Positions 43,510 through 43,989 of a stretch of DNA of 64,000 bases are shown piece by piece; positions within the stretch are counted from its first letter, which is position 1; every line of letters starts with the position of its first letter. The notes beneath the pieces were generated by a model. The model saw only the letters and a program-made list of their open reading frames with translations, made no database searches and was not told the DNA's origin. The stretch lies in NCBI GenBank assembly GCA_964016885.1, contig OZ024741.1, positions 53,506,001 through 53,570,000 on the forward strand, given 5' to 3'. This stretch comes from Eledone cirrhosa. Taxonomy: Eukaryota. The position numbers and the translations under genes are program-made.

Positions 43510-43989
43510 AAAAAGAGATGAAATCGAAAATGCAACTGGAGTCTTATTTTTTTTTTAAATATATATATTTATTTGGTTCCTTTACCGGTTTCGCAGTTCT
43601 TCTGCTTTTCAAAAGGTGAGTTGAGATGGAGGGTCTGTGGTTTTTCTCACATCTGTTTGGTCTCTGAATGTTACTTGTTTTATATGGAAAAAGTGTGACA
43701 AACCAATCAAATTACTTCTCGAAAAACCTGGCATTTCGAGCCACTTTTTCCATATAAAACAAGTAACATTCAGAGACCAACCAGATGTGAGAAAAACCAC
43801 AGACCCTCCATCTCAACTCACCTTTTGAAAAGCAGAAGAACTGCTAAACCGGTAAAGGAACCAAATAAATATATATATTTTTTTAAAAAATAAGACTCCA
43901 GTTGCCTTTTCGATTTCATCACTTTTTCTTTATACTTTCACTCGTGTAGGACACCTCGGTTATTTTTCATTTTGTAAAAAAAACCTCAC

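What the first reader, a model, noticed from the sequence alone, without database searches (positions are those of the whole stretch)
43579..43616. Natural hammerhead with a compensated U3-A8 core (UUGAAAA) in the Neptune PLE 3' end
Seen: five copies (9374+, 43579-, 43821+, 46173+, 55956-) have full hammerhead topology: stem I, stem II hairpin, GAAA, palindromic CCGG and UA. The core reads UUGAAAA instead of CUGANGA. The divergent copy at 55956-55992 keeps this core with covarying stems (gcag/ctgc to gcat/atgc; ctt/aag to ttt/aaa). Two copies carry a GAAA mutation. Known: C3 and G8 form a tertiary Watson-Crick pair, so C3U plus G8A is the compensatory swap. Inferred: a real ribozyme variant that CUGANGA-based searches would miss.
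Basis: partly seen in the sequence, partly recalled or inferred. Interest (0 to 1): 0.8.

Follow-up and report, generated by a model that had tools for sequence, protein, structure and literature searches.

The report
Transposon hammerhead with swapped U-A core
This is a real hammerhead-ribozyme motif in the end repeats of an abundant Penelope-like jumping gene and likely cuts its RNA slowly as a pair; its swapped U-A core is already published, and the new details are a 4,800-copy sister family with a changed core base and a predicted hairpin that would mask the core.

Summary
Observation confirmed; novelty claim not. All five copies lie where stated, with core UUGAAAA. They are minimal type-I hammerhead motifs in the pseudo-LTRs of Neptune-type Penelope-like elements (PLEs): intact 775-aa RT/GIY-YIG copies carry the motif 3' of the ORF and again about 4.7 kb upstream. 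The genome holds at least 13,143 family-1 and 4,834 family-2 copies. Three PLE families only about 58% identical in protein keep the core and the ACCGGU palindrome while stem II covaries, position 17 is never G, and a fourth family varies position 7. A separate 316-nt tandem retrozyme (2,199 matches) also uses U3-A8. But natural U3-A8 cores are in print (Perreault 2011), including UUGAAAA in a Schistosoma PLE (Cervera 2014), and this scan noted one in another genome. Corrections: only 2 of 5 window copies are intact; G12U at 43845 is private decay, while A13C at 55968 is fixed in family 2 (98 of 100 listed); stem I is only 2-4 bp; no C3-G8 sister family exists here, so 3-8 covariation is not shown within the lineage. 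Cleavage is untested. Copy 3' ends lie 70-150 nt past the site, so cleavage does not define them. Residual interest: the A13C family and a UCAA:UUGA anti-core hairpin.

The parts
43579..43616 (-). Minimal type-I hammerhead motif, family 1, intact (U3 at 43612; predicted cut 3' of A17 at 43583)
43621..43624 (-). Upstream UCAA predicted to pair with core U3-U4-G5-A6 (alternative, inactive hairpin)
43821..43858 (+). Family 1 motif with G12U at 43845 (private change at the general base, predicted dead); other arm of the same inverted insertion
43434..44002 (.). Inverted, 5'-truncated family 1 insertion: arms 43434-43695 (-) and 43696-44002 (+), both ending in (TA)n
9373..9410 (+). Family 1 motif with weakened stem II, 3' of a decayed RT/EN ORF
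5443..9551 (+). Decayed Neptune-type PLE copy: frameshifted RT-GIY-YIG ORF about 5625-7908 (80-90% identical in protein to the intact copy in L058), 3' region with the motif, (TA)n end
46172..46209 (+). Family 1 motif, intact core, 3-bp stem I
44718..46349 (+). 5'-truncated family 1 copy (EN remnant plus 3' region)
55956..55992 (-). Family 2 motif: U3-A8, stem II GCAU/AUGC, GCAA in place of GAAA (A13C at 55968, fixed in the family)

Best explanation
The motif is a minimal type-I hammerhead sequence in both pseudo-LTRs of Neptune-type Penelope-like retrotransposons; two copies likely pair through the ACCGGU palindrome, with U3-A8 predicted to replace the C3-G8 pair, and would cleave slowly after GUA, probably with help from the element's protein. 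Shown: the sequence, its place in the element, copy numbers and stem covariation across families. Inferred: dimer formation, the 3-8 pair, cleavage, and that cleavage is an accessory step (trimming the 5' end of the transcript that runs from the upstream pLTR into ORF1) rather than a requirement for copying. Most genomic copies are passive 3' fragments.
For: Motif 3' of the ORF on the same strand in 18 of 19 loci chosen for an intact 775-aa ORF; a direct 5' copy about 4.7 kb upstream in 5 of 19; same layout in family 3 (L206, L209). Families 1-3 are 57.5-58% identical in ORF2. Stem II pairs 10.2, 10.3 and 10.4 change on both sides between families, G10.1-C11.1 is kept, stem I pair 2.2-1.2 swaps U-A to A-U, position 7 is A or U, position 17 is A, C or U and never G. 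Family 2 was found by BLAST, not by the core pattern, and keeps 17 of 18 core and stem III letters, while ungapped 20-nt flank bins match at 4-12 of 20. Palindrome duplex -8.3 kcal/mol. A separate retrozyme with full stems I and III and covarying stems II and III has U3-A8 in 100 of 100 listed matches although the pattern allowed C and G. U3-A8 is active in vitro and natural (PMC3088659). PLE min-HHRs cleave weakly as dimers (PMC4209133). The anole Poseidon HHR is protein-assisted and dispensable for insertion in vitro (PMC11167929).
Against: No cleavage or expression data. Stem I is 4 or 3 bp in family 1, 3 A-U pairs in family 2 and only 2 bp in families 3 and 4; its first pair has probability 0.00-0.34 in monomer ensembles, against 0.64 for the canonical retrozyme. 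Family 2 spread to 4,834 copies with A13C, a position whose mutation is reported to cost 10-100-fold (PMC4075628). No C3-G8 family with the CCGG palindrome exists in this genome (10 hits, control 145), so the 3-8 pair is not shown by covariation within the lineage. Families 3 and 4 were found with a pattern that fixed the core letters, so their core identity is circular; only their stems, palindrome centre, position 17 and location are independent. Copy 3' ends lie 70-89 nt (32 of 69) or 140-149 nt (31 of 69) past the site and none at it.
Confidence: 0.68

Rival explanations
1. The motif descends from a hammerhead but no longer cleaves in this lineage. It is kept as a structural element (two hairpins plus a dimerising palindrome) for packaging, ORF protein binding or positioning reverse-transcription start sites.
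For: A13C is fixed in a 4,834-copy family with an open RT-EN frame in L219. Stem I is reduced to 2 bp in families 3 and 4, and the UCAA:UUGA hairpin is favoured over stem I in most representatives (G5 paired upstream with probability 0.24-0.99). Insertions end at two fixed points downstream and always span the site. HHR mutants do not impair insertion in the anole element.
Against: Families 1, 3 and 4 keep every catalytic core letter, vary only at position 7 and obey the not-G rule at 17, which is the pattern catalysis predicts. Published PLE HHRs with a 2-bp helix I exist (Drosophila virilis).
Confidence: 0.22
2. The motif is a regulated ribozyme: the upstream UCAA pairs with core positions 3-6 and holds it off until dimerisation or protein binding refolds it, and the U3 state is kept partly because of this hairpin.
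For: UCAA lies 3-8 nt upstream of the core in all four PLE families, including the pairs 1/2 and 3/4 whose flanks show no BLAST similarity. It extends to 6 bp in family 2. Only 4-7% of 14-nt windows in these 3' regions hold TCAA.
Against: Only two independent groups. The four letters never vary, so there is no covariation. The hairpin is absent from the U3-A8 retrozyme and two other U3-A8 families. By eye, about 10 of the 56 published PLE HHRs in Cervera's Fig. S3 have a comparable complement, and those may be 3' splice sites.
Confidence: 0.07
3. Chance resemblance in an A/T-rich repeat end.
For: Monomer folding energies are not better than shuffles; no Rfam match.
Against: Same position in three PLE families at 58% protein identity with compensatory stem changes. 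The descriptor finds 52 distinct U-A or C-G motifs in the 1.26 Mb held against 5 hits, none U-A or C-G, in three shuffles (these loci were enriched by my searches).
Confidence: 0.03

Closest known systems
Minimal hammerheads (min-HHR) of metazoan PLEs, including the U3-A8 families Sm3/Sm4 of Schistosoma mansoni Cercyon (Cervera & de la Pena 2014, PMC4209133; read: main text parts 1-2 of 4, supplement parts 1-2 of 3)
   Same: Type I, palindromic stem III needing a dimer, located in both pLTRs, many single and opposite-strand copies, U3-A8 core (S. mansoni 4 has UUGAAAAA).
   Different: [quoted passage not shown]
Natural core variants of hammerheads (Perreault et al. 2011, PMC3088659; read: section 8 and passages)
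   Same: C3-G8 to U3-A8 covariation seen in nature and active.
   Different: An A13 substitution is not among the variants described in the section read (A6C, A6a and U13a insertions, U15.1-A16.1).
Poseidon element of Anolis carolinensis (Frangieh et al. 2024, PMC11167929; read: passages)
   Same: HHR in the pLTR, two downstream end points ('tail'), uncut RNA as template.
   Different: Canonical C3-G8; ORF starts inside stem II. Here ORF1 starts about 170 nt past the site.
Non-LTR retrozymes (Cervera & de la Pena 2020, PMC7229834; read: passages)
   Same: This genome's 316-nt and 466-nt tandem repeats with type I hammerheads fit this class.
   Different: The motif of the finding is in an autonomous PLE, not a retrozyme. 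The 316-nt retrozyme has a U3-A8 core, which the passages read do not mention.

Membership tests
Hammerhead ribozyme, type I minimal (PLE) | Core C3-U4-G5-A6-N7-G8-A9 or its compensated U3/A8 form | tested here: met
   U3/A8 form in all five copies and four families
Hammerhead ribozyme, type I minimal (PLE) | G12-A13-A14-A15.1 and U16.1-H17 | tested here: met
   Met in families 1, 3, 4. Not met by the 43825+ copy (G12U) or by family 2 (A13C in 98 of 100 listed)
Hammerhead ribozyme, type I minimal (PLE) | Stem II closed by G10.1-C11.1, with covariation | tested here: met
   Three pairs change on both sides across families; counted by hand, too few lineages for a statistic
Hammerhead ribozyme, type I minimal (PLE) | Stem I | tested here: inconclusive
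   2-4 bp, one compensatory swap, low predicted occupancy
Hammerhead ribozyme, type I minimal (PLE) | Palindromic stem III allowing a dimer | tested here: met
   ACCGGU self-complementary, -8.3 kcal/mol
Hammerhead ribozyme, type I minimal (PLE) | C3-G8 to U3-A8 covariation among homologous copies | tested here: inconclusive
   No C3-G8 family with CCGG in this genome; U-A or C-G, not mixed, in the multi-copy families seen
Hammerhead ribozyme, type I minimal (PLE) | Self-cleavage at NUH | not testable with these tools
   Needs an in vitro assay or RNA end data
Penelope-like element, EN+ | RT with C-terminal GIY-YIG endonuclease, pLTRs, inverted 5'-truncated copies | tested here: met
   RVT_1 E=1.6e-6 (just under its curated cut-off) and GIY-YIG E=5e-6 (above cut-off) in L058; pLTR and inversions
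Neptune clade | CX2-5CxxC linker before GIY-YIG, two Cys inside GIY-YIG, (TA)n targets, optional frameshifted ORF1 (Craig 2021) | tested here: met
   CGRSNCGTC linker and IYAIKCKGCNEDYIG; ends in (TA)n; ORF1 overlapping in the -1 frame
Neptune clade | Phylogenetic placement against Nematis and other clades | not tested
   No reference sequences were available; the linker is shared with Nematis, so the label is by features only

The most novel reading that the evidence does not exclude
In this Neptune lineage the hammerhead is turning from a catalyst into a structural switch: a conserved UCAA hairpin sequesters the U3 core, stem I has shrunk to 2 bp, and one family spread to about 4,800 copies after fixing A13C. 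That would be a natural, genome-scale demonstration that PLE hammerhead catalysis is dispensable, or else that A8 tolerates C13 as a new active core.
Probability: 0.25. Interest if true: 0.6.

Novelty: new member of a known kind. Interest (0 to 1): 0.3.

Why it matters
The U3-A8 swap itself adds little, since it is published. The value is in the set of natural variants in one genome: families with an intact core (1, 3, 4), one with fixed A13C (2), and a full-stem retrozyme with U3-A8. Together they allow a direct test of an open question, namely whether PLE hammerheads need to cleave for the element to spread. They also show that more than 20,000 motifs in this genome are invisible to CUGANGA-only descriptors and to Rfam.

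Tried and rejected
Rfam: no hammerhead among the 150 of 331 matches shown for the window, none among 19 for 43540-43900, none at gathering score in 5 loci including the canonical retrozyme, so Rfam silence says nothing. Monomer folding z-scores were uninformative. Related elements in metagenome contigs: 166 pattern matches, none confirmed. Sequencing runs: no RNA holder listed; contigs of four runs laid on 43700-43960 were cut at 43854 and showed no variant above 5% in the core. One search's spacer range missed the modal family-2 length (194 hits, deletion-biased); one search replaced it. MAFFT misregistered stem II, so no formal pair count was run. A search for further families with GG/GT stems gave 46 hits against control 20, mostly singletons and old low-copy families. 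Lunse 2017 and Martick & Scott 2006 could not be read, so anything they say on these variants is unseen. Paper searches: 'hammerhead'+'A13C' gave 0; 'octopus'+'hammerhead ribozyme' gave nothing on this motif in the 4 listed. The octopus label is my guess from genome size and repeats, not a tool result. Copies that begin at the cleavage site were not searched for. I considered a splice acceptor inside the core of families 3 and 4 but could not test it without RNA.

Full report
Observation. The five copies are at the stated places. The focal copy on the minus strand reads stem I CCUU, core UUGAAAA, stem II GCAG-AAGAA-CUGC, GAAA, CCGG, UA, stem I AAGG. Only this copy and 46176+ are of the family type. 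9377+ has a weakened stem II, 43825+ has G12U and 55989- has A13C. The copies at 43612- and 43825+ are the two arms of one inverted insertion (junction 43695/43696), so they cannot act as a tandem dimer on one transcript. Monomers fold no better than shuffles and the minimum-energy structure includes stem I in 1 of 5.

Host element. The window lies in a 3.0-Gb animal genome. The 9377 copy is 3' of a frameshifted RT/GIY-YIG ORF. Many genomic copies have an open 775-aa frame. One of them (L058) has RVT_1 and GIY-YIG matches, the CX4CxxC linker and two cysteines within GIY-YIG, which Craig 2021 gives for Neptune and Nematis (passages). In 19 loci chosen for an intact ORF, 18 have the motif downstream on the same strand and 5 have a direct copy about 4.7 kb upstream. 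L090 shows a 1.2-kb 5' pLTR holding the motif, a tail, a 400-aa ORF1 and the RT-EN ORF in the -1 frame. 'Neptune' is therefore supported by features, not by a tree.

Genome survey. Family 1: 13,143 matches to a flank-anchored pattern, control 0; none of the first 100 listed has C3 or G8, read by eye. Family 2 (the 55956 type): 4,834 matches, control 0; position 13 is C in 98, A in 1 and G in 1 of the first 100. It is a separate PLE, 58% identical in ORF2. A U3-A8 pattern with a longer stem-loop II gave 4,560 matches, control 42. These include family 3, a third PLE at 57.5-58% with the motif in both pLTRs (L206, L209); family 4, related to family 3 in its flanks but not firmly tied to an ORF in 8 loci examined; and a 316-nt tandem retrozyme (2,199 matches, control 0). 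A C3-G8 pattern with the same CCGG palindrome gave 10 matches against control 145, so this lineage has no canonical sister here. A canonical-core retrozyme of 466-469 nt dominates the 9,723 matches.

Is it a hammerhead? Across families 1-4 the variation falls where hammerheads allow it. Position 7 is A or U, position 17 is A, C or U, G10.1-C11.1 is constant, pairs 10.2-10.4 change on both sides, and stem I pair 2.2-1.2 swaps. The core identity of families 3 and 4 is partly built into the search pattern, but their paired stem II, palindrome centre, position 17 and location are not. Family 2 was found without the pattern. The retrozyme has full stems I and III with compensatory changes in II and III and keeps U3-A8 in 100 of 100 listed matches, which is independent support that this core is maintained. 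Against: stem I is 2-4 bp and rarely formed in monomer ensembles, family 2 has A13C, and in all four families an upstream UCAA can pair with core positions 3-6.

Mechanism. By analogy with published PLE min-HHRs, two motifs would pair through ACCGGU (-8.3 kcal/mol) and cleave weakly, perhaps only with the element's protein, as shown for the anole Poseidon. Of 69 distinct family-1 3' flanks held, 32 end 70-89 nt and 31 end 140-149 nt past the site, 5 run on, 1 ends at about 30 nt and none ends at the site. This matches the two-start 'tail' of PLEs and means the templates were uncut, or rejoined, at the 3' motif. Cleavage in the 5' pLTR would leave a transcript starting about 170 nt before ORF1; this step is inferred and copies starting there were not counted. 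The spread of family 2 with A13C, where mutations are reported to cost 10-100-fold, suggests that fast cleavage is not needed.

Comparison with print. U3-A8 was reported in nature and as active by Perreault 2011 and in about 1,300 S. mansoni PLE motifs by Cervera 2014, whose alignment lists a Cercyon motif with UUGAAAAA. I found no paper on A13C hammerheads or on this motif in the guessed host, but Lunse 2017, which lists about 150,000 PLE variants as I recall it, could not be read, and supplements of the other papers were not seen.

Verdict. A real motif and a new member of a known kind. Confidence that it is a working, if slow, ribozyme in family 1 is about 0.7. Interest 0.3, carried by the A13C family, the U3-A8 retrozyme and the possible anti-core hairpin rather than by the U3-A8 swap.

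Noticed in passing
window 8581-8895: A 5S rRNA copy (Rfam 86.7 bits) followed by a dispersed repeat is inserted in the 3' region of the PLE copy, between partly duplicated segments (8356-8525 repeated at 8529-8589 and 8893-9018); absent from the 44718-46380 copy.
   Followed up: partly
L163-L168, L187, L095, L096: 316-nt tandem retrozyme with a full type I hammerhead and U3-A8 core; stems II and III covary; 2,199 genome matches.
   Followed up: partly
L131-L160: 466-469-nt tandem retrozyme with a canonical core and CUAG palindrome, in arrays of 30 or more copies; most of 9,723 matches.
   Followed up: partly
L090:2902-4103: 400-aa ORF1 overlapping the RT-EN ORF in the -1 frame with a U-UUU-UUA heptamer, the same in 5 full-length copies. 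Weak gag/PNMA-like look-alikes only (0.85, low recognition). Frameshifted ORF1 is known in PLEs.
   Followed up: partly
window 55779-55809 (+) and 3817-3864 (+), partial at 3191 (-): Canonical C3-G8 hammerhead-like motifs of other repeat families; the 3822 type recurs in many loci and lies beside a GIY-YIG-like fragment on the opposite strand at 3397-3873.
   Followed up: no
window 37989-38819 (-): PLE-like RT fragment with a DKT motif, possibly of the Hydra clade (by eye against Craig 2021); no Pfam match.
   Followed up: no
L169:2870, L212:324, L223, L091:1686, L235: Further low-copy U3-A8 hammerhead families with other stems, three of these hits found incidentally.
   Followed up: partly
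G000:C1, pairs listed: Many family-1 copies are head-to-head inverted pairs with junctions within about 20-90 nt of the two motifs; may only reflect short 5' truncation.
   Followed up: no
window 13270-28500: About 15 kb of 9-, 15- and 33-nt tandem arrays.
   Followed up: no
window 29556-32982 and 50655-52557: Decayed non-LTR retrotransposon-like ORF fragments, recognised by eye; not scanned.
   Followed up: no
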